Of a stretch of 64,000 nt of DNA, positions 4,773 to 35,913 are shown piece after piece. How positions within the stretch are numbered: position 1 is the stretch's first letter; the number at the start of each line of letters is the position of its first letter. The stretch comes from Candidatus Nomurabacteria bacterium (GTDB taxonomy: Bacteria; Patescibacteriota; Minisyncoccia; Phycocordibacterales; UBA918), in contig CP060229.1 in the NCBI GenBank assembly GCA_023898585.1, forward strand, positions 662,587-726,586, written 5' to 3'. The notes below the pieces were generated by a model that saw only the letters and a program-made list of their open reading frames with translations, was not told the origin of the DNA and ran no database searches. The translations under genes and the position numbers were made by a program.

Positions 4773-5339
4773 TTATTCAACCGAATCAGGATTGATGTGC
4801 AAGACCCGAAGTCTATCGTCCATAGCCTTTTGAATAATAGCTTGCAGTTCTTTAGGGTCGGGAAGACCGTTGGTTTTAAAATTGCTCTCATGCGCGCCGG
4901 CGGTCTGGGCTTGTAGTGTGCCGAAGTTCAATAAGGTAGGGATGATTCCTTTTATGTAGAATTCTATATCTTGTAGTCTCTCCAAACGAAATATACTGAC
5001 ATTACGGTTAAAAAAATGAATTTGATCCACCAAGATTATTCTTCGGTCAGTGATGATCCAAAGGTCAAGATAGTAGTGAGTCCAAGTCATAAATCCCGCC
5101 ATTAAGCAAAGGACAGACCAACCGGCAACGGCGAAAGTGATTATGGCTGTGTAGTGACCTAAATTAAAATCAAAATTTATTAATGTGTCTGGGAAAAGAG
5201 CGATGATAAACAATAGGAAAAAGGGGAACAGTAGCATTAAGAAAAAACCAAAAAGCTCTGCCACTATGACAAACCAATGTTTTCTTACTGTTTTAAGAAT
5301 TTTCTCACTTTCTTCAAGTTGTATTTTTTCAAATAGCAT
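4773..5339 (-). CDS. Membrane protein with bacterial PH (bPH_2/YdbS-like) domain
   Basis: Two TM helices followed by an ITDRRIILV-type bPH_2 domain. Confidence 0.5.
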   Translation of the reverse strand: MLFEKIQLEESEKILKTVRKHWFVIVAELFGFFLMLLFPFFLLFIIALFPDTLINFDFNLGHYTAIITFAVAGWSVLCLMAGFMTWTHYYLDLWIITDRRIILVDQIHFFNRNVSIFRLERLQDIEFYIKGIIPTLLNFGTLQAQTAGAHESNFKTNGLPDPKELQAIIQKAMDDRLRVLHINPDSVE

Positions 5340-5349
5340 GAATCTGTAT

Positions 5350-5577
5350 TTATATTATGACAGTCATTACACCCATTACTGCTAATAGTGGCAATGTGGT
5401 TGCGAAATATAGGAAGAAAGTCAAACCTGTCACCTTGGTGTCTGTGCTGTAGTTTGTCCAATGATAATAAAAAATAGCAGTGAAGATAACATAAGAGGCT
5501 AGAATAAAATAAAAAACCAACAAGAGTAAAGTTTCCATAGGAAGATCAATTGGTGGTGTTTGACTAATGAAATTCAC
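5350..5577 (-). CDS. Small membrane protein
   Basis: 75 aa, 2-3 TM helices. Confidence 0.3.
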   Translation of the reverse strand: MNFISQTPPIDLPMETLLLLVFYFILASYVIFTAIFYYHWTNYSTDTKVTGLTFFLYFATTLPLLAVMGVMTVII

Positions 5578-5584
5578 AGCTAGG

Positions 5585-6344
5585 TTATTGTAGCACTAAA
5601 ATCGAGTAACGCTCGATACCATACTGGTCTTTATGAGTAGTGACAGAAAAATTATTTTTGTGCCCCAGTTCCATTATCAGAGCGGACTGCTCAGGTTCGT
5701 GTTCGAGCCAGAGTTGTCCGGTTGGTTCGATATATGATGAAGTCTGGTTAATGATTTCGGTAATTACTTCCATGCCTTTCTCACCACCAAAGAGAGCAAC
5801 GTAGGGCTCGTGTTTTCTAACTGACTCTTCAGTGCGATTGAGGGAAGGGTCTATATACGGTGGGTTTGAAAGTATAAAGTCATATTTTCCAGTCAAACCA
5901 CCAAAAAGACTGGTGTGAAAAATGTTGTACCGGTCTTCTGATATGTTATTCTCCTCGAGATTTTTTCTTATAGTTGGGAGGAGGCGCGCGTCGATTTCGG
6001 AGAAATCGACGCGCGCCTCGGAATTGCCTTTGCCACCGCGATACCGATACAGCCACTGCCGGCGCAAAGATCGAGATGCGTGGCGGTACTTTACCGAGGC
6101 CGAGAGATAAAGTCTCTCTCCCTTTGATAACTTTTATTGCCTCCTCAGTCCAAAACTCTGTTTCGGGGCGAGGAATCAAAGGTTTTGAGTCCAGGCAAAT
6201 TTTACAGCCAAGAAAGGGTGTGTGGCCGATTAGGTAAGCAAGTGGTTCACCGAGGGCGAGGCGTTTGCAGTCGGCGAAAAAAGCTTCGCTTTTTTCGCCT
6301 CCGTACTTCTCCTCTAATAACCACTCCATCTCTTGACTTTCCAT
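5585..6344 (-). pseudogene. prmC: Release-factor glutamine methyltransferase PrmC/HemK, disrupted by two frameshifts (or assembly errors)
   Basis: HemK signature pieces sit in three different frames: the N-terminus through LIPRPETE, then [19 protein letters not shown], then [14 protein letters not shown]...ILSNPPYI. The second shift coincides with an 18-bp perfect GC-rich inverted repeat at 5981-6019. Confidence 0.55.
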
Positions 6345-6358
6345 ATATTTTTACTATT

Positions 6359-6802
6359 ATGCAATTCAGTAGTTATTTCGTCAAATTGTCTGATAAAAAC
6401 AGGAGAGTGTTAATGAACGCATCTATTAGTGAATGCGACGCATTCCGAAAAAGAAGAATTTCCGATTCGTTTGGAACACTGGAAGATGTCCGACATAAAC
6501 TATATGTCTGTACTGAAATAGACCAGCGTCTCAAGAGGATCTATTTTCTCGATGTCGGCACCTTCTTGGAGATGTGGAGTGCTTTGCGGAGCGTGGGTAC
6601 ATTCGACGGCGTCAAGCTTTACAAGGTAGCGTTCCAGCTGGAAATATCAGATTCTTTTCCGGTAACACAACCGGCCTCTGAAGACTTTTTCCGACCTTTA
6701 CAGCAGGTATATCGTCAGTTCCTGTGCGAAGCTCTGAAGTTGGCACGAGAGGAGCTGATCAGTCAGAAAAATACTCTAGCTTCTCTCTCTGTCAAGGCTT
6801 AG
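6359..6802 (+). CDS. Hypothetical protein
   Basis: The tracked ORF 6137-6802 is trimmed to the ATG at 6359 (MQFSSY) to remove its antisense overlap with prmC. Confidence 0.4.
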   Translation: MQFSSYFVKLSDKNRRVLMNASISECDAFRKRRISDSFGTLEDVRHKLYVCTEIDQRLKRIYFLDVGTFLEMWSALRSVGTFDGVKLYKVAFQLEISDSFPVTQPASEDFFRPLQQVYRQFLCEALKLAREELISQKNTLASLSVKA

Positions 6803-6875
6803 TTCTCAGATTATCGATTTTTTTTATGTAGCCGGCCATTAACCGCCGGCTATTATTTTTGCTACAATAACAATC

Positions 6876-7634
6876 ATGACACCCGGTCCAATCTTGGAAA
6901 TCAAAAATTTAACCAAAATCTACCGTAATGGTAGACGAGAAGAGACAGCTTTGAATAATGTCTCACTCGATGTTGAAAGAGGAGTTTTCTTCGGTCTGCT
7001 TGGTCCGAATGGGGCAGGGAAAAGCACTTTGATTCACTCTGTTACAGGCGTGACGGAACCGACTTCGGGTGCGATTTTGATTGACGGTGTTGATGTGGTC
7101 AAAGATTATAAAATCGCCCGAACGAAGGTGGGCCTTTCTCCGCAAGAATTCAACGTAAATATATTCAATACGCCTGCGCAAATTATGGACTACATGGCTG
7201 GTTATTACGGAATTCCCAAAGCTACTCGAAAAGAAAAAATAGACTCGTTAATCAAAAGGTTCAATTTGGAAAAACACCGAGATGTTTTGTTTCAAAAGCT
7301 TTCCGGTGGTTTAAAGCGCAGAGTATTGCTCGGACGTGCTTTGGTCCACACCCCGGATTTGTTGATTTTGGACGAGCCGACAGCCGGAGTGGATGTTGAA
7401 CAAAGACGTGGCTTGTGGGAATATCTGAAAGAGTTAAACAAGAGCGGAAAAACAATAATTCTGACGTCACATTATCTGGAAGAAGTGCAATATCTTTGTA
7501 ATGAGATAGCGATTATCAACCATGGGAAGATTGTCGCTTCGGGCACGAAAGCGGAATTCATGAGAGACGGGAAAAGCCTTGAAGAGAAATATCTTGAAAT
7601 TACCAAAAGCAACAATAACAAAAATGCTTTATGA
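6876..7634 (+). CDS. ABC transporter ATP-binding protein (ABC-2 exporter type)
   Basis: Walker A GPNGAGKST, signature LSGGLKRR, Walker B ILDEPT. Confidence 0.85.
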   Translation: MTPGPILEIKNLTKIYRNGRREETALNNVSLDVERGVFFGLLGPNGAGKSTLIHSVTGVTEPTSGAILIDGVDVVKDYKIARTKVGLSPQEFNVNIFNTPAQIMDYMAGYYGIPKATRKEKIDSLIKRFNLEKHRDVLFQKLSGGLKRRVLLGRALVHTPDLLILDEPTAGVDVEQRRGLWEYLKELNKSGKTIILTSHYLEEVQYLCNEIAIINHGKIVASGTKAEFMRDGKSLEEKYLEITKSNNNKNAL

Positions 7635-8392
7635 ATTGGATAGGACTGTATACATTGTTGCGACGTGAGGTAGAAAGAACACTGGCCGTGGCCATACAGA
7701 CACTAGCTGCGCCGGTAGTTTCCGCCACCCTGTACATTTTTATATTTGGGACGGTATTGGGAACCAAAATAGATGATTTTGCCGGAGTCCCCTACATTTC
7801 TTTTGTTTTTCCCGGCGTACTCATGATGTCAGTTATCAACGCGTCTTTTGCCAGTGCTTCTTCAGGACTTTACTTTATGCGTTTTTCTCGCGGAATCGAA
7901 GAGATTCTCGTCGCTCCCTTATCTTATTTTGAGATGTTAGTCGGTTTTGTCGGTAGTGCGGTTGCAAGATCTGTGATTGTCGGTGTACTGATTCTAATTG
8001 TAGGATTTTTCTTTGGCGCGGTGACATTGTCAAACCCTTTAGGTTTTATCTTCTACGTGGTCACCATTGCTTCCATCTTTGCTATGCTGGGAATAATAGT
8101 GGCTTTGTGGGCGGAAGACTTTGAACAACTGCAAGTTTTAAACACCTTCGTCATCACACCACTCACTTATTTGGGAGGAATTTTTTATTCAATATCGTTT
8201 TTGCCCGATCTGGTCGCTACTATTACTCGTCTCAACCCATTTTTCTATTTCGCTGATGGAATCAGAAGCACTATGATTGGGTATAGTGAGTCCAACTTAA
8301 TGGTTGGGGTGTTTATTATTTTGTTTCTCCTTGCATCTTTGGCACTTTTGGTTACGTATTTATTCAGGTCGGGATGGAAGATACGAACATGA
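7631..8392 (+). CDS. ABC-2 family transporter permease
   Basis: 6 TM helices, 4-nt overlap with the upstream ATPase gene. Confidence 0.75.
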   Translation: MNWIGLYTLLRREVERTLAVAIQTLAAPVVSATLYIFIFGTVLGTKIDDFAGVPYISFVFPGVLMMSVINASFASASSGLYFMRFSRGIEEILVAPLSYFEMLVGFVGSAVARSVIVGVLILIVGFFFGAVTLSNPLGFIFYVVTIASIFAMLGIIVALWAEDFEQLQVLNTFVITPLTYLGGIFYSISFLPDLVATITRLNPFFYFADGIRSTMIGYSESNLMVGVFIILFLLASLALLVTYLFRSGWKIRT

Positions 8393-8455
8393 GAGTATAG
8401 TTGTCTACAGAAGAGTGGCGCCGAAGGCGCCACTCTTTGTTAAACTTAATGAAGT

Positions 8456-9457
8456 ATGAAAAAGAACACCAAATTATATGAAACAGTAGCCGCTCTGTTG
8501 TCTCCCGGTAAAGGTATCTTAGCAGCCGATGAAAGTGATCCAACAGCCGGCAAGCGTTTGGCCATGGTGCATCTACCTAACAAGCCGGAGAACCGACAAG
8601 ATTTCAGAGAAATATTATTTACAGCTCCCGATATAGAGAAATATCTTTCTGGGGTGATTATGTACGATTCATCGATCCGTAACACGACCGATGATGGCAC
8701 TCCTTTTCCGGATGTGCTCACTGCAAAAGGTATCGTGCCAGGGATCAAGGTTGATTTAGGCACTTCCGAATTGCAAGGCTTTAAAGGCGAGGTGGTGACT
8801 CAAGGACTGGATAATTTAACTGATCGTTTTGAGGAATATTACGATATGGGGGCTCGTTTCGCTAAGTGGCGAGCGGTTATCACTATTGATGAAGATAAAA
8901 CACCGACAGACGAAGCGATAAAAATCAACTCCATAATGCTGGCTCGATATGCCCAAATCGCCCAAACGTCGAGCATTGTTCCAATTGTTGAGCCGGAAGT
9001 TATTCATGCCGGAGATCATTCTATTCAGAGAGCGGAATTGGTGACGACCCGAACACTGCAAATTCTTTTTCAGACTCTAATGGAATACAAAGTTGATTTG
9101 GCCGGACTTATTCTCAAATCATCAATGGTTTTGGCGGGGGACGTGTATTCTGAGCAGTCTTCACCCGAAGAGGTAGCGAATGCGACATTACGCACTTTCC
9201 ATATGAGCGTACCTTATGAGTGTGCCGGAATTGTCTTCCTATCCGGAGGACAGACCCCAGAGCGGTCAACCAAAAACCTTAACGCCATTGGTAAGATGGG
9301 TGAACAACCCTGGCCAATCACTTTTTCATTCTCTAGAGCCATTGAAGAGCCAGTCTTAAAAGCCTGGGAAGGAAAGAAAGAGAATGAAGGTAAGGCGAAA
9401 GAAGTATTGTTGGAAGTAAGTAAGCAAAACAGTCTGGCGAGCCTTGGTAAATTGTAG
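8456..9457 (+). CDS. fba: Fructose-bisphosphate aldolase, class I
   Basis: GKGILAADESDPTAGKRL N-terminal motif of class I aldolases, 333 aa. Confidence 0.85.
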   Translation: MKKNTKLYETVAALLSPGKGILAADESDPTAGKRLAMVHLPNKPENRQDFREILFTAPDIEKYLSGVIMYDSSIRNTTDDGTPFPDVLTAKGIVPGIKVDLGTSELQGFKGEVVTQGLDNLTDRFEEYYDMGARFAKWRAVITIDEDKTPTDEAIKINSIMLARYAQIAQTSSIVPIVEPEVIHAGDHSIQRAELVTTRTLQILFQTLMEYKVDLAGLILKSSMVLAGDVYSEQSSPEEVANATLRTFHMSVPYECAGIVFLSGGQTPERSTKNLNAIGKMGEQPWPITFSFSRAIEEPVLKAWEGKKENEGKAKEVLLEVSKQNSLASLGKL

Positions 9458-28454: not shown

Positions 28455-28526
28455 TCCGCAGTAGCTCAGTGGTAGAGCAGGTCGCTGTTAACGACTTGGT
28501 CGTAGGTTCGAATCCTACCTGCGGAG
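28455..28526 (+). tRNA. tRNA-Asn (anticodon GTT)
   Basis: Hand-folded cloverleaf: acceptor tccgcag/ctgcgga, D-arm gctc-agtggtag-agc, anticodon stem ggtcg/cgact with loop cuGUUaa, T-arm gtagg-ttcgaat-cctac, discriminator G. Confidence 0.85.
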
Positions 28527-30209
28527 CATAATAGAAAAAACAGGGTCTTTTGGCTCTGTTTTTTCATTTGAGCCTTTATCTACAACATAATTTTTAGGTT
28601 CGAACTTTGGATTTACAGCTTTTGCTCGTTTAATACCTTCAATCAGTTTCTCAATAGCAATATCGTTGTAAATCTTGAGTTCTTCGTTGTTCCAAACTAG
28701 GTTCGAACCAAGTTTTGAAAGCATCGTTCTTTTTGCTTCAACATCGTCTTCAGTAAAGACTCCAGCAATGGTGGAAGTGATGTCTGTAATCTCCATCATT
28801 CGTGCATACCAATCAACTGTTTCTTCGTCACTTACTGTTACGTCAGCATATGATTCATTGAGTCGCCTCAAGTCCTCGTTATATTCTTCCTCGGTAAATT
28901 TACCGTCTCGGTACATTGCTCGGAGTTTCGCCTTCTTTTCTTCAAACTCCTGCTTACGTGCTTCTCGGTTTCTGCTCATCGCGACCTTTTCAACTGCTTC
29001 CTGCCCCTTGAGTTCATGAATATGCTTCTTTGACCACTCAACTAGCTCTGGTGAAAATTGTAGGTTCTCAAGGGCAAAATTTGCCATATACACGTCGATG
29101 TCACTCGAAGCAATAGATTTGTATGTTTCGCCAGCTTTCTTTGCTTTGACGTTGTAGTGCCAGATGTAGGATAGATATTTTGGGTGCTCCATTTTGTCTA
29201 TCTCAACACCACAACTAGGGCAGTGGGTTTTGCTTCGGTAGGCAAACTTGTGTTTACAATCACAGATAACTTGAAACTTCACATCCTGACCAATAGTGCC
29301 TTCATCGTGGCTACTAATGAATCCAGAGTATGTGGTCTGGTGATGCTGTACTTTTGGAATATGTGCCTTTGAAAGAATCATCTTTATTTTGTTATGTTCA
29401 GCTTCTGTGATGAGTCGTGGTAGTGATTTATCCAACTCAAATCTTTCACCACCATAGAAAAAGAAACCAGCATAGATTGGGTCTTTCAAAATCTCATACA
29501 TTCGGGAAAGTACAATTAGTTCGCCACCGGTCTTCTTTCTTGGAACAGTAGTCAATTTTAGTTCCTCAACTGCGTACTTGTGCAGTTTGCCTGCTGAATA
29601 TGTGCCAGTGAGAAACTTCTTTAGAAGTATCTCAATCAGTGGAAGTCTTACTTGGTCAACCAACCATTTACGATTTCCTTTTTCTTCACTTTTATCATTA
29701 AGGAATCCTAGCGTGGCTACACCATGGGGTACTCCCATTCGTGCTTTTTTGAATTGTCCTCGTTTTACGTCCCTACTCAAGTTTTTTGAATATTGCTTTG
29801 AAGCTCCAAAATGGTATGACAAAATTCCAGCGTCAGAATTTTCGTCATAAACTTCGGTCGGAGTTATTACAACCAACTTTCCCGCACCTAGGAGGTCAAT
29901 TAAAATACCACCCTCGGTCATATTTCTAGCAAGACGATTTATATGCCAGCATACAATAGCGTTTATTTCCCCTTTAAATATTTTTTGCATCATTTCATTA
30001 AATTGTGGACGCAAACCAGCTTCTTTAGCTGATTTTGCATCTTGAAATTTTATGAAAGGTGTTTTGAGTTTGTAATACTCTGCAATATTGTTACATTCAT
30101 CTTCTTGTGAAGACAAAGAAAGCATCTGCCTATCTTCCCCTTCAGTAGATTTGCGATGATAATTTGCAGGTTTAAGTTTTGTAAAATCTAGTGTTTTTTC
30201 CATAAACAA
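28515..30209 (-). CDS. Large serine recombinase (resolvase/invertase catalytic domain, recombinase domain and zinc-ribbon region)
   Basis: N-terminal YHRKSTEGEDRQ...LSLSSQ (catalytic Ser region), later ...GILIDLLGAGKLVVI, a Cys cluster CDCKHKF...CPSCG and a coiled-coil C-terminus. The 3' end overlaps the last 12 nt of tRNA-Asn. Confidence 0.8.
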   Translation of the reverse strand: MFMEKTLDFTKLKPANYHRKSTEGEDRQMLSLSSQEDECNNIAEYYKLKTPFIKFQDAKSAKEAGLRPQFNEMMQKIFKGEINAIVCWHINRLARNMTEGGILIDLLGAGKLVVITPTEVYDENSDAGILSYHFGASKQYSKNLSRDVKRGQFKKARMGVPHGVATLGFLNDKSEEKGNRKWLVDQVRLPLIEILLKKFLTGTYSAGKLHKYAVEELKLTTVPRKKTGGELIVLSRMYEILKDPIYAGFFFYGGERFELDKSLPRLITEAEHNKIKMILSKAHIPKVQHHQTTYSGFISSHDEGTIGQDVKFQVICDCKHKFAYRSKTHCPSCGVEIDKMEHPKYLSYIWHYNVKAKKAGETYKSIASSDIDVYMANFALENLQFSPELVEWSKKHIHELKGQEAVEKVAMSRNREARKQEFEEKKAKLRAMYRDGKFTEEEYNEDLRRLNESYADVTVSDEETVDWYARMMEITDITSTIAGVFTEDDVEAKRTMLSKLGSNLVWNNEELKIYNDIAIEKLIEGIKRAKAVNPKFEPKNYVVDKGSNEKTEPKDPVFSIMLRR

Positions 30210-30238
30210 AAATGAGGAAACGAGATGACTTTTAGTTG

Positions 30239-30319
30239 CTACACCAAAGGATACTCATTTCCTCGTTTTTATTAACAAAAAACTTTCTATGAAGTCTTTT
30301 GTGAATTCCTTTGGTGTAG
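30239..30319. repeat. Inverted repeat pair (14 bp, gctacaccaaagga / tcctttggtgtagc) just upstream of the recombinase start
   Basis: 30239-30251 pairs with 30307-30319, separated by ~55 nt. Confidence 0.5.
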
Positions 30320-30615
30320 CTTAAGTATTTTATCAATACTCATATTATTCCACTAGCCCCGCTTTACCTTTTGAACTGTAAAGGCTTTTGAGGTATTTGA
30401 ACTAGTCAAAAACTTTTATGAAGTAACTACTGGATACGCGACTATGTGACCTTGAACACATAATCCATATCGGAGTGATTACGGTACAGATTCAATGGCT
30501 GGGTGGAGCGGTAAACCATTTGCCCAGCTTTCGCATCTACACCTTAATTCACCCTTATTATTTGAGAGGAGCTTCTTTGTCTCTCTGCCCCTAAAAGAGT
30601 TTCGTAATTACGTTG

Positions 30616-30807
30616 TTATATATATTTCTCAATATTGTCGGAAACAGTTTCTTTTTTCATAGATAGTAGTAGCCCACTCATCAATAGGTGACCAATTTTC
30701 TCGAGTTCATCTTCTGAAATTGAGTTTACAAAATCAGTCCCGATAGTGATTTCGAGAGTAGAGCGAAGCTCGTTCAAAGCTTTATTACTGATTCTAAATT
30801 GAGTCAC
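30616..30807 (-). CDS. Hypothetical small protein
   Basis: 63 aa, island ORFan. Confidence 0.3.
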   Translation of the reverse strand: MTQFRISNKALNELRSTLEITIGTDFVNSISEDELEKIGHLLMSGLLLSMKKETVSDNIEKYI

Positions 30808-31081
30808 AAGAGTGTGCTTTTTCTGAAGCGTAGAAAAAGAAAAAGACGACCTAATGTCGCCTTATTCACTCGAGGTTTTGTTCAAACACCAAGAATAAAT
30901 AAGACATTATGTTTGCAGTATTCTGCAAACGAAATTCATTTATTTATTCAACGTGTTCGAGCAAAACTGAACTGTTTTGTCTTTTGGAGCACGAGCTCCG
31001 CCAATTTCTTGACTTGCTCATTATAGCATTTACCAAAACAGAAACCAAGAAAATATACAAAAAATGGAGTATAATCAAAAC

Positions 31082-31230
31082 GCTGACAGTAACTATAAGT
31101 ATAAGTTTCCGAAAGGAAGCTTTGTCGTTAATCGTGTGCGGAATACGCACTCTCGCTTCTTGAGGAAACACGATTAGCGGCGAAAGCTTCTAGTTGCTGT
31201 CAGCACCTCTCGCGGGGGTGCGTTTTCTTT
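31082..31230 (+). ncRNA. Candidate structured leader/small RNA with intrinsic terminator
   Basis: Perfect TATAAT at 31070-31075; an 8-bp closing stem gctgacag(31082-89)/ctgtcagc(31197-204); an internal GNRA hairpin aagtttcc-GAAA-ggaagctt; a gtgcg-gaata-cgcac hairpin; and a terminator gcacc-(9 nt)-ggtgc plus gttttcttt. It ends 18 nt before the ATG at 31248. Confidence 0.3.
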
Positions 31231-31247
31231 ATATATAACTAAACTAT

Positions 31248-31481
31248 ATGGTTGACCAAATACTAATAGCAGGATTGAGTGGACTGTTGATTATCGCTAT
31301 AGTCCACGGACTTGCGGTGTTTTCTAAAATTATCAAGATGAAAAATCAATCAAGTATTACTTTGATTGAATCAGTGAAGCAATCTAAACTTGGCGCTCTG
31401 TCTTGGGTAACACTCACTATCTTTGTGTTGTTTTTAGCCATGATTATCTTTGGAATCGGGGCTTCTGCTATTCTTGGATAA
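31248..31481 (+). CDS. Small 2-TM membrane protein
   Basis: 77 aa, two hydrophobic helices. Confidence 0.45.
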   Translation: MVDQILIAGLSGLLIIAIVHGLAVFSKIIKMKNQSSITLIESVKQSKLGALSWVTLTIFVLFLAMIIFGIGASAILG

Positions 31482-31503
31482 CCAAGCTTAACCAAGGTTA
31501 ACT

Positions 31504-31737
31504 ATGGCTAAATATGTCGACATCACTGGCCATGTGAAGTTTTTAAATACAAAAGATGGTCATGGAGCAGTCATGCCAAATGTTCTTGTCGGTGCTCACA
31601 ATCAACTTATATTTTTTACCCAAGAAAACACAGAAGATTGGGACCGTCTTAAGCGAGGAAGTATCGTCATGACAGATGTTAAATCAGAGAACGGAAAACT
31701 ATACGCAAACAACTTGTCTCTGCTTCAAATTTCCTAG
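31504..31737 (+). CDS. Degenerate cold-shock-domain (OB-fold) protein
   Basis: GHVKFLNTKDGHGAV...QLIFF...LKRGSIVMTDV...NGKLYANNLSLL aligns with CspA G.VKWFN..KGFGFI...VFVHF...L.EGQ.V.F.....KGP.A.NV, but most RNP aromatic residues are substituted. Confidence 0.45.
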   Translation: MAKYVDITGHVKFLNTKDGHGAVMPNVLVGAHNQLIFFTQENTEDWDRLKRGSIVMTDVKSENGKLYANNLSLLQIS

Positions 31738-31739
31738 AT

Positions 31740-32102
31740 TTAGCTAGTTTCTGCCAAATCACCAAGGAGTTGGCCGATTGTAATGTTTACTCCAGATTCC
31801 TTCTCTTTAGTAAGAATATTTAGAGCTGTATAAATAATACGGCGGTCTGCCGAACCTGCTGATGTTGGACGAGACGCAGACTTAATCAAAGCATCATTTA
31901 TTCGTGGCAAAACTGCACCTATTTGCTCAACAAAACCCTGTTTCAGTAGTTCTTCCCGAATCAGCTCTTTTTCAACCTCCTCGACCTTTTTACGCCTTGT
32001 ACGGTAAGTCGTTGGACGCTCTGAAACAGCAGCCTTCTGACTAGCTTTCTTGCGGATTTCTGGGTTTTGAAAGTTAAATTTTTTTACGCTCATTTCAAGC
32101 AT
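31740..32102 (-). CDS. Hypothetical basic protein
   Basis: 120 aa, Lys/Arg-rich N-terminus, divergent from the OLD nuclease gene. Confidence 0.4.
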   Translation of the reverse strand: MLEMSVKKFNFQNPEIRKKASQKAAVSERPTTYRTRRKKVEEVEKELIREELLKQGFVEQIGAVLPRINDALIKSASRPTSAGSADRRIIYTALNILTKEKESGVNITIGQLLGDLAETS

Positions 32103-32115
32103 TATATCATCAACA

Positions 32116-32146
32116 TTGTGCCAGTTTTCCTAGAAAATGGTAAAAT
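32116..32146 (+). promoter_or_regulatory. Candidate promoter giving a leaderless or very short-leader transcript for the OLD-family gene
   Basis: TTGTGC-19 nt-TGgTAAAAT, with the ATG 7 nt downstream of the -10. Confidence 0.3.
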
Positions 32147-32153
32147 CACGCTA

Positions 32154-34043
32154 ATGATTTTTAAAGAACTAAAATTGTCTTCAAGAGGTCTTGAAAATTA
32201 CGTTATTTTAGGTAGTAGTGATGAAAAAATTTTAAAAAATCTCTCAAAAATAAACATATTTGTAGGACAAAATAATTCAGGTAAGAGTAGATTTTTACGT
32301 GGACTATCAATGTTTGAAGAATATGAGTTTATTCCAAAAGATTTTGATTATGATGGCGCAACTCAATTTGCCAACGAAGCAGTTAAACGCATTGACGAGA
32401 TACTAAAAAATCATAATTCAAACACTCTTGGCGATATTCAAAGCAAGTTTTTATCCGCTGTCCAGCCGAACAGTTTTTTTAAGCCGAAAAATAATAGTTT
32501 ACATCGACTAGATGAGCTATTTAGCTATATTTCTAGAACAACTCTAAACAATGTCCCTCATAACGGTCAAAATATGGAACGTTGTGTAGAAACTTTAAAA
32601 ACTTATGTAACAAGTCAAAGGGAGACTTTGAATAAATATCTTGAAGAATTAAAAGATAAAGATTCTGGAAAGTATGTGAGGATGTATGTTCCTGTTATGC
32701 GAGGTTTACGCCCCCCGAGAGTAGGTAATCATAATGATGATGACTATTTTAATAGAACGAACTCTGATTATTATGGGGGTAGTGTAGGCTCTGGTGATTT
32801 AACAAACAATCAAATTTTTTCAGGCCTGTCTTTGTATGAGAATATAAGAAAACGGTTGCTTGGTTCGCAGGAAGAAAGAAAGTTAGTTAGAGATTTCGAG
32901 ATTTTCTTGAGTGAAAATTTCTTTGATGGAGAACCTATTACTCTCATCCCAGCTCATGATGCTGATGTGTTGACAGTGAGTATCGGAAAAATTGAAAACA
33001 AGAGAATTTATGAGCTGGGTGACGGTATACAGAGTCTTATAATCCTCAACTATCCAATTTTTGAATTCGTGAGAAGCAGGCCAAAAGATTCACTGTTGGT
33101 TTTTATTGAAGAGCCAGAGCTTTATGTGCATCCAGGTTTACAAAGAAAGCTGTTGGAACAATGGCAAAAATCGGGGTATGAGAAGGTGCAATTTTTTGTT
33201 ACAACTCATTCGAATCACTTCCTTGACATGACGATAGATTTTAGTGACATGTCTATTTTTAAGATTTCTTTACATGGATATAACGAAAGTTATAAAGAAA
33301 ATGAGTTTGTGGTCGAAAATTTAAGCTCGGGTGATAAGAGTTTGCTTGAATCTCTAGGTGTTAGGAATTCTTCAGTATTCCTCTCAAATGCAACGATATG
33401 GGTGGAAGGCATCTCTGACCGAATTTATTTTAGAAAGTTTCTAGAACTATATCTAAAAAAGAAAGGCGAGTCTTTAACATATTTAGAAGATACACACTAT
33501 TCCTTTGTTGAATACGGTGGCGGCAATCTACCGCACTGGTCATTTGACGAGGATGGCTCTGATGATGACTCCATAGATGTTAGCAGGATAGTTTCAAATA
33601 TCTATCTTGTCGCAGATAGGGATGACACAGAAACTAATACATCATCTGCAAAAGCGAAAAGACTTGCTCATCTAAAAAAGATTTTAGGTCCAAAGAATAG
33701 TACCGTCTTACCGGTTAGAGAAACCGAAAATCTCATAACTTTTGAATTACTGTCTAAAGTTATTGCAAGCCGAGGAGATTCACTTAAAGAAAAATTAAAG
33801 CTTGATACAGTCCGAGAAAAATTAAAGAGTGAGTACCTTGGACACTATATAGAGTCCAAGTTACTAGTTGGTGACCCAAAGAAGCGGTATTGCTCAAGTA
33901 CATCAAAAACAATTAAAAATAAAGCTAGTTTTGCCAAAGAAGTATGCGAGCAACTTAAATCATTTGATGAATTGAGTGACGGAGCAAAAAAGTTGACTAG
34001 GTCATTGTATAGGTTCATTGTTAAGACAAATACTGATGAGTGA
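32154..34043 (+). CDS. OLD-family nuclease: N-terminal ABC-type ATPase plus C-terminal Toprim domain
   Basis: Walker A GQNNSGKS, a long insertion, then Walker B/D-loop LLVFIEEPELYVHPGLQRKL and H-loop FFVTTHSNH. Toprim motifs ATIWVEGISDRIYF (Glu), YLVADRDDTE (DxD) and LPVRETENL follow. The start is trimmed to the ATG at 32154. Confidence 0.75.
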   Translation: MIFKELKLSSRGLENYVILGSSDEKILKNLSKINIFVGQNNSGKSRFLRGLSMFEEYEFIPKDFDYDGATQFANEAVKRIDEILKNHNSNTLGDIQSKFLSAVQPNSFFKPKNNSLHRLDELFSYISRTTLNNVPHNGQNMERCVETLKTYVTSQRETLNKYLEELKDKDSGKYVRMYVPVMRGLRPPRVGNHNDDDYFNRTNSDYYGGSVGSGDLTNNQIFSGLSLYENIRKRLLGSQEERKLVRDFEIFLSENFFDGEPITLIPAHDADVLTVSIGKIENKRIYELGDGIQSLIILNYPIFEFVRSRPKDSLLVFIEEPELYVHPGLQRKLLEQWQKSGYEKVQFFVTTHSNHFLDMTIDFSDMSIFKISLHGYNESYKENEFVVENLSSGDKSLLESLGVRNSSVFLSNATIWVEGISDRIYFRKFLELYLKKKGESLTYLEDTHYSFVEYGGGNLPHWSFDEDGSDDDSIDVSRIVSNIYLVADRDDTETNTSSAKAKRLAHLKKILGPKNSTVLPVRETENLITFELLSKVIASRGDSLKEKLKLDTVREKLKSEYLGHYIESKLLVGDPKKRYCSSTSKTIKNKASFAKEVCEQLKSFDELSDGAKKLTRSLYRFIVKTNTDE

Positions 34044-34335
34044 TATTTTTACACAAGTTGTTGGAATGATTATCGGGACCGTGCTGCTCGGGTGGTTTGG
34101 GTTGGGTGGCGGTCATAGGACTGTAACAGTTGTTTCTAGAACAAGACAGTCAAAGAAATGGAAACTGGCAATTATTTTTGGAATTCTAATGATTCTGGGA
34201 GGTGCTGTTATATTCAGTAATAATTATCCACTTGGAGGTTTTAATAACCCTTATAGTGGGCTAGGTTTTTCGCTGGCCTTCCTTGGAGTAGTCACTTACC
34301 TAGTTGGAAAGTTTGGAGTTTGGTGGAATAGATAA
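34018..34335 (+). CDS. Small 3-TM membrane protein, translationally coupled to the OLD-family gene
   Basis: 105 aa; 26-nt overlap with the OLD ORF end; Gly-rich TM helices. Confidence 0.45.
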   Translation: MLRQILMSDIFTQVVGMIIGTVLLGWFGLGGGHRTVTVVSRTRQSKKWKLAIIFGILMILGGAVIFSNNYPLGGFNNPYSGLGFSLAFLGVVTYLVGKFGVWWNR

Positions 34336-34336
34336 T

Positions 34337-35149
34337 TTACTGTTTAGTTGATGACTTTGTTGAGGATGTTTTTGAGCGGTCTTTTACACATTCCGTTTGT
34401 TTGGTATTCCATTTATAGCCGTCTTTGCATGTACACTGGTCTTCTCCATACGGAGCTGATTTTGAACCAAATTCAGCTTTGCAAATACGCTCCAGAGTCA
34501 CACAAGAATTCTTTAGCACAAAGAAACCATCGTTACAGTACAGGGTCGAACCAACAATCTTTCCATTATTCGGTTTTTCACATTTATCACCCTTTTCGAT
34601 GTAGCCAGAATCACAATATAAAGTGTCGCCAATCACATACCCGTTCTTTGGTTGCTTCACACACTTATCATTTTTCTCATAATATCCAGAGTCACAGTAG
34701 GTAACTCCGTATGACTTCCAGCCACCTTTAATTTCCTTGTAAATGTAATCTGAACTTAAGCTAGAATACCCTGAATAACTTGGCACATACGATGAGTACG
34801 ATGATTTATATGAAGGTGTATATGATGGCGTATAGCTAGGAGTATATGAAGGGAATGTGTATGAGGAGCGATATGTTGGAAGCGAAAATCCTGATGAACC
34901 ACTATTGTTGTAGTAGTTATTGAGATAGGTGCTTGCATTACCACCTGCTGTAACTCCAGTGTACGGATTGGTGTTTCCTGGGAAGCTGAAATTGTTGTAT
35001 GGATTACCGTCTGGGGTAGAACGCCAATAGCCATTTACGTACGTCCCGTTACTTCGGTAGTATCCGTTGACGTATTGGTCGGCTAAAACGGTGCCGAAGC
35101 TACCAAAAATGACCCCAAATGAGAGCAGAATAGTGATAATGTATTTCAT
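34337..35149 (-). CDS. Secreted Tyr/Ser/Asn-rich protein with C-terminal cysteine-repeat modules
   Basis: Signal peptide; YVNGYYRS/YVNGYWRS; (SYTP)3SYKSSYSSYVPSY; and three YCDSGYxEKxDKC-type repeats. Confidence 0.55.
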   Translation of the reverse strand: MKYIITILLSFGVIFGSFGTVLADQYVNGYYRSNGTYVNGYWRSTPDGNPYNNFSFPGNTNPYTGVTAGGNASTYLNNYYNNSGSSGFSLPTYRSSYTFPSYTPSYTPSYTPSYKSSYSSYVPSYSGYSSLSSDYIYKEIKGGWKSYGVTYCDSGYYEKNDKCVKQPKNGYVIGDTLYCDSGYIEKGDKCEKPNNGKIVGSTLYCNDGFFVLKNSCVTLERICKAEFGSKSAPYGEDQCTCKDGYKWNTKQTECVKDRSKTSSTKSSTKQ

Positions 35150-35280
35150 ATATAAAAATCATATACCTCTTTAAAGAAAAAGCTAGGGACCTGTACAAAC
35201 AGTCATTCTTATTATATTCTGCGTCCAGCTTCTGGGCTTGAGCCCTATAAGTTCAACACATCATCAAGAAGGAGTACGAA

Positions 35281-35913
35281 ATGAACGATATCGCCAAGAT
35301 TTCTGTTCCATCCTATGGCGGAACTGGGTCGGCCAAAGACGGCCTGCATGTTGATGTCAGGGGCCTGACATCTGATGAGATGGAACGCCTACGTGCGTCC
35401 ATGCTCGGAGGTCATCACTGGGTTCGACGCGGCGATGATGGTCGTTTGCAGCATGTTCCTTCATACGAAGAACTGCCTGGTCCTGTGACTGACGACCAAA
35501 TGCTCCCGTTCTGGCGTCAGCCGACTGATGGCGAAACCCGTCAAGCAGACATGTTCGGTTTCGACGAAAGCACTGAAGCGGCCTTGAAGCATGCTAGTCC
35601 GTCCATCTACATCACCAGCTTGTGCGGCTACCACTATTCGGATGAAAATTACAAGTGTGAAGCGGCCAAGTTGACCGAATGGGGTTTCGTCTGCATGCGG
35701 TCGCCGCGCGATTCTGACAGTGGGCGGTACTGGGAAGTCTGGTACCTGTCTGGTGTTTGGGCAGTCAAGGGGCGCCTGGGCGAAGCATTGACAGACAGCA
35801 ATGCAAAGACCAACGACGAAAAATTCAAGTTCGTTCTCGAATTTCTTCGTCGTAACGCCAGCTTCGGCAGCTTGGACGTTTCCATGCAACGTATGGCAAT
35901 GGTCATGGACTGA
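35281..35913 (+). CDS. Hypothetical protein encoded in a GC-rich (~55%) insert
   Basis: AAGGAG lies 9 nt upstream. The codon usage is G/C3-rich, unlike the flanks. No recognisable domain. Confidence 0.55.
   Translation: MNDIAKISVPSYGGTGSAKDGLHVDVRGLTSDEMERLRASMLGGHHWVRRGDDGRLQHVPSYEELPGPVTDDQMLPFWRQPTDGETRQADMFGFDESTEAALKHASPSIYITSLCGYHYSDENYKCEAAKLTEWGFVCMRSPRDSDSGRYWEVWYLSGVWAVKGRLGEALTDSNAKTNDEKFKFVLEFLRRNASFGSLDVSMQRMAMVMD

What the first reader, a model, noticed from the sequence alone, without database searches (positions are those of the whole stretch)
32154..34335. OLD-family ABC-ATPase/Toprim nuclease translationally coupled to a small 3-TM protein: candidate two-gene anti-phage system
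The 630-aa protein has the full OLD architecture: Walker A GQNNSGKS, a long insert, Walker B LLVFIEEPE, an H-loop, and a Toprim domain with E...DxD motifs. The gene set does not match a canonical Gabija or class 2 OLD system, because there is no UvrD/GajB-like helicase. Instead the gene overlaps by 26 nt with a 105-aa triple-TM protein, which suggests an obligate pair. That pairing would be a class 1-OLD-plus-membrane-effector configuration that, as far as I know, is not a described defence type. The location inside an integrase-linked island fits a defence role.
Basis: partly seen in the sequence, partly recalled or inferred. Interest (0 to 1): 0.7.

Follow-up and report, generated by a model that had tools for sequence, protein, structure and literature searches.

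The report
Stand-alone OLD nuclease in defence hotspot
The large gene is a genuine OLD-type ATPase/nuclease of the single-gene kind, carried as anti-phage cargo on a small integrative element of a Candidate Phyla Radiation bacterium, and the small membrane gene behind it is real but is not its dedicated partner.

Summary
The observation largely holds. Window 32154-34043 (+) encodes a 629-aa protein with an intact ABC-ATPase head and an OLD-type Toprim domain. The ORF behind it is a real gene for a three-segment membrane protein under purifying selection. Its start is ATG 34036, giving 99 aa and an 8-nt overlap, not 105 aa and 26 nt.

The two-gene interpretation is not supported. The ATPase belongs to a large family found in bacteria and archaea (more than 2600 hits). 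In 80 genomes it has no conserved neighbour and no relative of the membrane protein ('TM99'). Three of the four close CPR homologues whose context was read lack TM99. In sister elements TM99 follows a PifA-like KAP NTPase instead of OLD. More distant TM99 relatives sit beside Gabija or beside a type I restriction-modification (RM)/Fic cluster.

The gene lies in a variable cargo slot next to a highly conserved 117-aa backbone gene. That backbone belongs to serine-recombinase elements, which here and in one sister element sit at tRNA genes. In sister elements the slot holds PifA, IetAS plus MmeI, a Cap4-nuclease/NACHT giant, an LmuA-like gene, or OLD plus a type II RM.

Best reading: a Class-1-like OLD defence nuclease in a defence hotspot. 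This is a new member of a known kind and of modest interest.

The parts
28455..28527 (+). tRNA-Asn (GTT), the likely integration site at the left edge of the element
   Evidence: ARAGORN and Rfam tRNA at 72.9 bits. The 3' end of the recombinase ORF overlaps it by 13 nt. No second copy of the tRNA 3' end exists in the window, so the right end of the element is undefined.
28515..30209 (-). Large serine recombinase, the element's integrase
   Evidence: Pfam Resolvase 7e-17 and a weak Recombinase match. It is 63% identical to the recombinase of sister element L093, which sits in the same Fpg/UDG neighbourhood, and 50% identical to those of L095 and L096.
30616..30807 (-). 63-aa backbone gene of unknown function
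   Evidence: Called in public assemblies. A weak homologue occupies the same position in L093.
31248..31481 (+). 77-aa small hydrophobic protein; whether it is backbone or accessory is unknown
   Evidence: ORF list and public gene calls. It has no family match.
31504..31737 (+). 77-aa cold-shock-domain-like backbone gene
   Evidence: NCBIfam CspE-like 6e-4. It is 35-39% identical to the CSD gene that flanks p117 in L093-L103.
31740..32093 (-). p117, a highly conserved 117-aa backbone gene that borders the variable cargo slot
   Evidence: It is 79-91% identical in elements carrying different cargo. It has 44 homologues. It matches no Pfam, PHROG or PADLOC family.
32118..32146 (+). Promoter-like site (GTGCCA, 17-nt spacer, TAAAAT, with TG upstream of the -10) just before the OLD start codon
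   Evidence: Consensus scan. The number of such sites in the region is not above chance, so this is only a lead.
32154..34043 (+). OLD-family ABC-ATPase/Toprim nuclease, 629 aa, of the stand-alone (Class-1-like) type
32265..32288 (+). Walker A motif, GQNNSGKS (residues 38-45)
   Evidence: Read directly from the sequence. N40, G43, K44 and S45 are invariant and G38 and S42 nearly invariant in 62 sequences.
33093..33116 (+). Walker B plus catalytic glutamate, LLVFIEEP (residues 314-321)
   Evidence: E320 and P321 are invariant and E319 is nearly invariant. This stretch aligns to VIIEEPE of Thermus scotoductus OLD, PDB 6p74.
33381..33743 (+). Toprim core (about residues 410-530) with E418, D422, D488-x-D490 and E523-x-E525
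   Evidence: E418, D422, D488, E523 and E525 are invariant and D490 nearly invariant in 62 sequences. In the full-length model beta-strands end at E418 and precede D488; the separate C-terminal domain model matches OLD C-terminal structures 6njw and 6nk8.
34036..34335 (+). TM99, a 99-aa membrane protein with three hydrophobic segments; co-transcribed, with an 8-nt overlap on the OLD stop codon

Best explanation
The 629-aa gene is a single-gene (Class-1-like) OLD-family nuclease. It is carried as defence cargo on a small integrative element inserted at tRNA-Asn in a Kaiserbacteria/Nomurabacteria-type CPR genome.

Shown:
- The protein has an ABC-ATPase head with a long helical insertion and a C-terminal OLD-type Toprim domain, and all catalytic residues are conserved.
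- Its family is widespread and patchily distributed across bacteria and archaea, occurs on plasmids and in a prophage, and has no conserved neighbour.
- In this lineage the gene sits in a cargo slot beside the conserved backbone gene p117. In sister elements that slot holds other known defence genes.

Inferred mechanism, by analogy with P2 OLD, Vc OLD and Ts OLD: the protein forms a dimer or higher oligomer through the insertion domain. ATP binding and hydrolysis by the paired heads license the two-metal Toprim site to cut nucleic acid during infection. It either nicks or cleaves invading DNA and blocks its replication (as Vc OLD does), or it cleaves host tRNA and aborts the infection (as P2 OLD does). 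Which substrate it uses cannot be told from sequence.

TM99 is a real small membrane protein co-transcribed with it. It most likely acts as an independent accessory or landmark gene of a sub-lineage of these elements, not as a required subunit.
For: Architecture:
- Pfam AAA_15 and AAA_21.
- Best PADLOC matches are GajA, AriA and Old profiles at only about 1e-19 to 1e-15, so the family is OLD-like but not one of the modelled families.
- PDB sequence searches put Ts OLD 6p74 first.
- The AlphaFold model has pLDDT 86. Its top Foldseek hits are the retron Eco8 OLD effector, GajA, PtuA and Ts OLD.
- The C-terminal domain model best matches the Xcc and Bp OLD Toprim regions.
- Catalytic residues are invariant.

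Stand-alone status:
- Across 80 genomes, all-against-all BLAST of three genes on each side gives no neighbour family larger than three loci, and none recurs at a fixed position.
- The upstream genes sampled include housekeeping genes such as carB, ribonucleotide reductase and methylmalonyl-CoA mutase.
- There are no TM99 or p117 relatives in those loci by tblastn or by family HMM.

Mobile and defence context:
- A tRNA-Asn gene and a serine recombinase lie at the left edge. GC drops to 0.34-0.39 in the island against about 0.42-0.45 nearby.
- p117 is 79-91% identical in sister elements. Their adjacent slots hold PifA (PADLOC 6e-92 and 1e-85), IetA plus IetS plus a type IIG RM, a Cap4-nuclease/NACHT protein of 1948 aa, an LmuA-like gene, and OLD plus an MvaI/BcnI RM.
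- Family members also occur on Bacillus cereus plasmids and in a P2/186-like Vibrio prophage.

Known functions of single-gene OLDs are described in PMC12392090 and PMC12445682 and in the abstract of PMC13261556 (as listed).
Against: - There is no experimental evidence for defence by this family.
- Placement among the published OLD clades was not tested.
- TM99 is tightly coupled to the NTPase gene in four diverged loci: OLD twice (overlaps of 8 and 4 nt) and PifA-like twice (a 3-nt gap and a 4-nt overlap).
- A TM99 relative also precedes a Gabija pair. A functional link is therefore not excluded.
- All five CPR-clade homologues have a closely spaced co-directional downstream gene, although of four different kinds.
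- The right boundary of the element was not found.
Confidence: 0.75

Rival explanations
1. One reading: OLD and TM99 form a two-gene system. The ATPase/nuclease senses infection and the small membrane protein acts as a membrane-disrupting effector or as an anchor.
For: - There is an 8-nt stop/start overlap in the window and a 4-nt overlap in L088 (OLD 59% identical, TM99 65% identical), so the pair persisted through considerable divergence.
- TM99 is under purifying selection.
- A TM99-family member lies 89 nt upstream of GajA-GajB on the same strand.
- Class 5 OLD has a conserved membrane-protein neighbour (PMC12796447).
Against: - No TM99-family gene lies near 80 family members or near the 53-62% identical homologues in L001-L003.
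- TM99 follows an unrelated PifA-like KAP NTPase in L089 and L091.
- That PifA-like protein (67% identical) occurs without TM99 in L095-97.
- Other TM99 relatives stand alone beside an RM/Fic cluster or beside unrelated genes.
- OLD already carries its own intact nuclease effector.
- Gene overlaps are common in this compact genome.
Confidence: 0.12
2. In the CPR clade, the OLD-like protein is the constant module of a cassette with a swappable second gene. That second gene would be TM99, a 564-aa protein with three TM segments, a PIN_12 nuclease, or a HAD-like protein, by analogy with effector swapping in other defence systems.
For: All five CPR-clade homologues have a co-directional downstream gene within -8 to +22 nt, of four different kinds. 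Two of the kinds are membrane proteins and one is a PIN nuclease.
Against: - The sample is only five loci, from very compact genomes.
- One of the 'partners' is a HAD-like hydrolase.
- None of the partners matches a PADLOC model.
- None recurs among 80 other loci.
- In the wider family, the sampled upstream neighbours include housekeeping genes and the downstream neighbour is often on the opposite strand.
Confidence: 0.08
3. The OLD-like protein has a non-defence role, for example in maintenance or replication of the element or in host cell-cycle control, as reported for the class 5 OLD Cran1.
For: Cran1 shows that OLD-family ATPases can have housekeeping roles and a membrane-protein neighbour (PMC12796447). 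The protein has not been tested.
Against: - Its distribution across phyla and domains is patchy and horizontal, unlike the vertical inheritance described for class 5.
- It is absent from most sister elements that share the same backbone, so it is not needed for the element.
- It is positionally interchangeable with known defence genes.
Confidence: 0.05

Closest known systems
Class 1 OLD family nucleases (P2 Old, Thermus scotoductus OLD 6p74, Vibrio cholerae Vc OLD, E. coli YbjD)
   Same: [quoted passage not shown]
- It is encoded as a stand-alone gene in variable neighbourhoods and is often on mobile elements.
- Ts OLD is the best sequence match in the PDB.
   Different: - Sequence similarity is very low (E 2e-5 for the single sequence, 4e-10 for the profile) and is confined to the ATPase core.
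- The protein is longer than these (629 aa against 528 aa for the Ts OLD chain and, from my own knowledge, about 586 aa for P2 Old) and has an extra C-terminal helical region.
- The family forms its own well-conserved group, about 40% identical across phyla.
- Phylogenetic placement relative to the published clades was not tested.
Class 2 OLD / Gabija GajA
   Same: - Best PADLOC profile match is GajA at 2.8e-19, covering residues 315-509 including the Toprim motifs.
- The C-terminal domain model is closest to the class 2 Toprim regions 6njw and 6nk8.
- Its length is similar to GajA.
   Different: There is no UvrD-like GajB next to it, either here or as a conserved neighbour in the 80 homologous loci.
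Class 5 OLD (Cran1) with its membrane-protein neighbour in Sulfolobales
   Same: An OLD-family gene is followed by a gene for a predicted membrane protein in a putative operon (PMC12796447).
   Different: - The class 5 pair is conserved and vertically inherited across one archaeal order and is linked to the cell cycle.
- Here the membrane gene is present in only two of 85 loci of the family and also accompanies other proteins.
- Sequence relatedness to Cran1 or to SiRe_0087 was not tested.
Defence hotspots of mobile elements (the P2 old/tin locus, P4-like satellites, pipolins)
   Same: A conserved integrative backbone carries a slot in which unrelated defence systems replace one another. Here these are OLD, PifA, IetAS plus MmeI, RM, and a Cap4-nuclease/NACHT protein. 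The concept is described in PMC10568477 (citing Rousset 2022) and in PMC11551731.
   Different: The backbone is different: a large serine recombinase, small FtsK-gamma-like or CSD-like genes, and p117. The elements are very small (about 5.6 kb in L089) and are found in CPR/Patescibacteria metagenomes.

Membership tests
OLD family (ABC ATPase + Toprim) | N-terminal ABC-type ATPase with Walker A, signature-like motif, Walker B plus catalytic Glu, and H-loop | tested here: met
   Pfam AAA_15 and AAA_21 are above threshold. K44, Q293, E320 and H352 are invariant and G38 and E319 nearly invariant in 62 sequences. The region aligns to Ts OLD.
OLD family (ABC ATPase + Toprim) | Helical dimerisation or insertion domain between Walker A and the signature motif | tested here: met
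   The AlphaFold model (pLDDT 86) has long helices at 66-86, 115-128 and 141-170 between the Walker A strand and the signature region. Full-length OLD proteins are the top fold matches. Actual dimerisation was not tested.
OLD family (ABC ATPase + Toprim) | C-terminal Toprim domain with a conserved Glu and a DxD metal-binding motif | tested here: met
   E418, D422, D488-x-D490 and E523-x-E525 are conserved. The domain model best matches the OLD Toprim structures 6njw and 6nk8 with probability 1.0. The Pfam OLD-like_TOPRIM match alone is below threshold (0.0056).
OLD family (ABC ATPase + Toprim) | ATPase and metal-dependent nuclease activity | not testable with these tools
   This needs purified protein.
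Class 1 OLD | Stand-alone gene in variable neighbourhoods with no conserved partner | tested here: met
   80 genome loci share no recurring neighbour. TM99 accompanies the gene in only two of 85 loci.
Class 1 OLD | Placement within the published Class 1 clades | not tested
   No reference set was available. Four RefSeq accessions of the family were not found in the 20 supplementary files of PMC12796447 that are held as text, which does not settle the question.
Class 2 OLD (Gabija) | Adjacent UvrD/PcrA/Rep-like helicase GajB | tested here: not met
   No helicase domain occurs in the island genes. The 80 loci have no conserved neighbour.
Class 3 OLD (retron) | Adjacent reverse transcriptase and msr/msd non-coding RNA | tested here: not met
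   No RT domain occurs in the island genes. Rfam finds only the tRNA and one chance-level sRNA match between 28000 and 36500. NCBIfam retron Eco8 effector scores 40.9 bits against a cut-off of 250.
Class 4 OLD (PARIS) | ATPase (AriA) and Toprim (AriB) encoded as separate proteins | tested here: not met
   Both domains lie in one 629-aa ORF.
Class 5 OLD (Cran1) | Conserved operon with a membrane protein, vertically inherited within one lineage | tested here: not met
   The membrane gene is not conserved next to homologues, and the family is spread horizontally. Sequence similarity to Cran1 was not tested.
Proposed two-gene 'OLD + small TM' system | The partner gene co-occurs with OLD homologues across genomes | tested here: not met
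   No TM99-family ORF in 80 genome loci or in L001-L003. TM99 is found with PifA-like proteins, with Gabija, with RM/Fic, or alone.

The most novel reading that the evidence does not exclude
TM99-type proteins of about 100 aa (motifs KKWK...GGFxNP...GKFGxWWN) would be a so far undescribed, recurrent component of defence islands. They would functionally couple to different NTPase-type defence proteins (Class-1-like OLD, PifA-like KAP NTPase, Gabija), for example as a membrane tether or a membrane-damaging effector. In the CPR clade the OLD gene would then be the constant half of a cassette with a swappable second gene.
Probability: 0.12. Interest if true: 0.6.

Novelty: new member of a known kind. 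Interest (0 to 1): 0.3.

Why it matters
Single-gene OLD nucleases are the least understood OLD class, with only P2 Old, Vc OLD and YbjD having phenotypes. This gene belongs to a large, well-conserved family that spans bacteria and archaea. In the records seen here it is named 'AAA family ATPase' or 'ATP-binding protein' by NCBI (some JGI records call it a predicted OLD-family endonuclease), and it matches PADLOC models only weakly. Naming it gives experimenters tractable homologues, for example in the Bacillus cereus group.

The more useful by-product is the context. A family of very small serine-recombinase elements in CPR bacteria carries a slot where OLD, PifA, IetAS, RM systems and a Cap4-nuclease/NACHT protein replace one another. 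That slot is a ready-made place to look for new defence genes in a group of organisms that I recall, without having checked it here, as being described as poor in defence systems.

The specific claim of a new OLD-plus-membrane-effector system does not stand.

Tried and rejected
- Direct repeats of the tRNA-Asn 3' end, to locate the right end of the element: none found. The boundary stays undefined, and serine recombinases need only short cores.
- IMG/VR scans with TM99 and with p117: no relatives.
- JGI metagenome scan with TM99: one remote relative only (L092).
- tblastn of TM99-family members against plasmids: no match. Against phages, the matches were weak and covered mainly the N-terminal, zinc-ribbon-containing part of the query, to longer or otherwise annotated proteins. 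I treated them as uninformative.
- PHROGs, Pfam, NCBIfam and PADLOC for TM99: nothing usable. For p117, Pfam, PADLOC, NCBIfam and PHROGs on the window protein or its L089 orthologue gave nothing. Pfam on 40 TM99-family members found only zinc-ribbon domains in some variants.
- Looking for family accessions in the Cran1 paper's supplements, to assign a clade: not found.
- Profile search of the family against PDB sequences captured only the ATPase core, so the Toprim test had to be done by fold.
- Terminator scan of 31600-35400: none found. Promoter-like sites are not above chance.
- A retron, PARIS or Gabija reading was considered and rejected on missing partners (see the membership test).
Full report
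**What is at the coordinates**

The ORF list and the sequence show a 629-codon gene at 32154-34043 (+), beginning MIFKELKL. A second ORF follows in another frame and ends at 34335.

An ATG at 34036 lies in the same frame. All four homologues begin there (MSD.../MND...), and both the NCBI and the Logan gene calls use it. The product is therefore 99 aa and overlaps the OLD stop codon by 8 nt.

An identical protein is annotated 'AAA family ATPase [Candidatus Kaiserbacteria bacterium]'. A 641-aa member of the same 90% cluster is annotated from a 995-kb 'Candidatus Nomurabacteria' record. The window therefore comes from a CPR/Patescibacteria genome.

**Is the large protein an OLD nuclease?**

Yes.

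- Pfam gives AAA_15 (8e-20) and AAA_21 (2e-17). The OLD-like_TOPRIM match is below threshold (0.0056).
- PADLOC's best profiles are GajA (2.8e-19, covering residues 315-509), AriA, NsnB, Old (1.2e-15) and the retron I-B ATPase-Toprim. All are weak, so no modelled family claims the protein.
- NCBIfam gives only sub-threshold matches to retron effectors.
- In alignments of 14 and 62 family members the following are invariant or nearly invariant:
  - Walker A (G38, N40, G43, K44, S45).
  - A signature-like D290-G291-x-Q293.
  - E319-E320-P321.
  - H352.
  - The Toprim acidic set E418-G419, D422, D488-x-D490 and E523-x-E525-N526.
- The best PDB sequence match is the Class 1 OLD of Thermus scotoductus (6p74), followed by PtuA and AriA.
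- A full-length AlphaFold model (pLDDT 86) finds the retron Eco8 OLD effector, GajA, PtuA and Ts OLD as its top Foldseek matches.
- Sequence searches covered only the ATPase core, so I modelled residues 396-629 separately (pLDDT 84). The best matches are the crystal structures of the C-terminal Toprim regions of Xanthomonas and Burkholderia OLD (probability 1.0, TM about 0.5), followed by GajA.

**Which kind of OLD?**

The published classes are defined mainly by gene context (PMC10568477; PMC12392090; PMC12796447):

| Class | Defining context |
|---|---|
| 1 | Stand-alone gene |
| 2 | With a UvrD-like GajB helicase |
| 4 | ATPase and Toprim split into AriA and AriB |
| 5 | With a conserved membrane-protein neighbour, in Sulfolobales |

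The protein search returned more than 2600 relatives. Many are about 40% identical over the full length, from Bacillus, Paenibacillus, Bacteroidota, Planctomycetota, Methanosarcina, Methanoculleus and others.

I fetched 80 genomic loci with 6-kb flanks, called ORFs, and clustered three neighbours on each side.

- No neighbour family exceeds three loci, and none recurs at a fixed position.
- The downstream gene is often on the opposite strand.
- The upstream genes sampled include carbamoyl-phosphate synthase, ribonucleotide reductase and methylmalonyl-CoA mutase.
- There is no helicase or reverse transcriptase among the island genes and no retron RNA.

By the context definition this is a Class-1-like, stand-alone OLD. 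Its placement among the published clades was not tested, and a look-up in one paper's supplements found nothing. Family members also occur on three Bacillus plasmids (two B. cereus, one B. tropicus) and in a P2/186-like Vibrio prophage.

**The small membrane gene (TM99)**

It is a real gene. Its four homologues are 65-84% identical to one another. Synonymous sites are saturated (pS 0.70-0.82) while pN is 0.09-0.19. DNA similarity begins at its ATG and ends at its stop codon. It has three hydrophobic segments.

It is not a dedicated OLD partner, on four lines of evidence:

- The close CPR homologues in L001, L002 and L003 (53-62% identical) are followed instead by a HAD-like 131-aa gene, a 564-aa protein with three TM segments, and a PIN_12 protein. 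They have no TM99.
- Only L088 (OLD 59% identical) repeats the pair, followed there by an MvaI/BcnI-type RM system. By pairwise identity, the two OLDs linked to TM99 are no closer to each other than to the unlinked ones.
- In L089, L090 and L091, TM99 follows a 680-aa KAP NTPase that matches PADLOC PifA over its full length (6e-92). A 67% identical PifA-like gene in L095-97 has no TM99.
- tblastn and a family HMM find no TM99 relative in any of the 80 genome loci.

A full profile search shows that TM99 belongs to a wider family of about 100-aa proteins: 78 clusters at 50% identity, with an N-terminus that is either a TM helix or a zinc ribbon. I could read only a few of their contexts:

- One member lies 89 nt upstream of a GajA-GajB pair.
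- One lies beside a type I RM plus Fic cluster, on the opposite strand.
- One lies among unrelated genes.

This hints that the family tends to sit in defence islands, but the sample is too small to say more.

**The wider context explains the arrangement**

The gene upstream on the opposite strand, p117 (31740-32093), is 91% identical in L089 and 80% identical in L088. It has 44 homologues. Reading their contigs shows a common backbone: a large serine recombinase, one or two small genes (FtsK-gamma-like, or unannotated), a cold-shock-domain-like gene, and then p117.

On the other side of p117 the content changes from element to element:

| Loci | Cargo next to p117 |
|---|---|
| window | OLD + TM99 |
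| L088 | OLD + TM99 + type II RM |
| L089 | PifA-like + TM99 + three unknown genes |
| L095-97 | PifA-like alone |
| L093/94 | IetA + IetS + an MmeI-type IIG enzyme |
| L098/99 | a 1948-aa Cap4-nuclease/NACHT protein |
| L100 | an LmuA-like gene + a 1120-aa protein |

L089 is a complete 5575-bp element at tRNA-Glu, bounded by 82-nt direct repeats. L093 lies in the same Fpg/UDG neighbourhood as the window element.

In the window, the element starts at tRNA-Asn (28455-28527) and the recombinase gene (28515-30209). GC falls to 0.34-0.39 across 30-35 kb. I could not find its right end.

This is a defence hotspot, and the OLD gene is one of its interchangeable cargos. That is the strongest argument available here that the gene serves defence.

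**How it most likely works**

Shown: the domain architecture, the conserved catalytic residues, the mobile and variable context, and co-transcription with TM99.

Inferred from characterised single-gene OLDs: the protein oligomerises through the insertion domain, and ATP binding and hydrolysis control a two-metal Toprim nuclease. The outcome is either DNA nicking that blocks phage replication (Vc OLD, PMC12392090) or tRNA anticodon-stem cleavage and abortive infection (P2 OLD, PMC12445682). In YbjD the ATPase is essential and the Toprim domain is dispensable (PMC13261556, abstract). The substrate and the trigger cannot be inferred for this family.

I commit to the stand-alone reading at about 0.75. 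I hold a functional OLD-TM99 pair at about 0.12, a swappable-second-gene cassette in the CPR clade at about 0.08, and a non-defence role at about 0.05.

**Verdict**

The defence reading is right and is now better supported. An OLD gene with a membrane-protein neighbour is in any case already described for class 5.

The gene is a new member of a known kind. The CPR defence hotspot and the TM99 family's habit of sitting beside defence genes are the parts worth following up.

Noticed in passing
window 31740-32093 (-); L088, L089, L093-L103: The 117-aa gene p117 is 79-91% identical across elements whose serine recombinases are only 50-63% identical and whose cargo differs completely. It matches no known family. 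It may be a key regulator or a recombination directionality factor of this element family.
   Followed up: partly
L093-L103, L088, L089 (sister elements of window 28455-34335): The slot beside p117 behaves as a defence hotspot in CPR integrative elements. It holds PifA-like KAP NTPase, IetAS plus MmeI, a 1948-aa Cap4-nuclease/NACHT protein, an LmuA-like gene plus a 1120-aa protein, or OLD with or without a type II RM. Several cargo proteins (1120 aa, at least 1607 aa, 262/80/276 aa) match no PADLOC model and are candidate new defence genes.
   Followed up: partly
L106-L109 (TM99 relative at L106 4563-4865; GajA 4955-6757; GajB 6741-8669): A 100-aa TM99-family protein sits 89 nt upstream of a Gabija pair on the same strand. 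The same arrangement appears on four of the five contigs found to carry this protein (the four that were shown).
   Followed up: no
L110-L113 (L110 6001-6303): The closest TM99 relative outside the CPR elements stands alone. It is divergent from a cluster of Fic, DUF7695, a type I-like restriction helicase, and a methylase/specificity fusion.
   Followed up: no
L089 2113-2194 and 7688-7769: 82-nt direct repeats (94% identical) bound a 5575-bp element at the 3' end of tRNA-Glu. Its recombinase gene is reduced to a 258-aa ORF with no Resolvase-domain match, so this copy is probably immobile.
   Followed up: partly
L001 7943-8338; L002 2973-4667; L003 3828-4718: The close CPR homologues of the OLD gene each have a different, tightly spaced co-directional downstream gene: a HAD-like 131-aa protein, a 564-aa protein with three N-terminal TM segments, and a PIN_12 protein with a C-terminal Cys cluster.
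   Followed up: partly
window 32118-32146 (+): A promoter-like site with an extended -10 ends 7 nt before the OLD ATG, which would give a leaderless or nearly leaderless mRNA. The count of such sites in the region is not above chance.
   Followed up: no
window 34337-35149 (-) and 35281-35913 (+): Convergent with TM99, with only 1 nt between the two stop codons, lies a 270-aa Tyr/Ser/Cys-rich protein with a hydrophobic N-terminus and a PHROG match (9e-9). Next comes a 210-aa gene with no family match in a stretch of 50% GC, much higher than its surroundings. Either could still belong to the island.
   Followed up: no
L104 3938-7146 (Vibrio phage 10N.286.45.F8_PE002): A 30% identical member of the OLD-like family in a P2/186-like prophage is followed, with a 4-nt overlap, by a DUF3427 gene. 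The pair lies between the repressor and lysis genes on one side and the integrase on the other.
   Followed up: no
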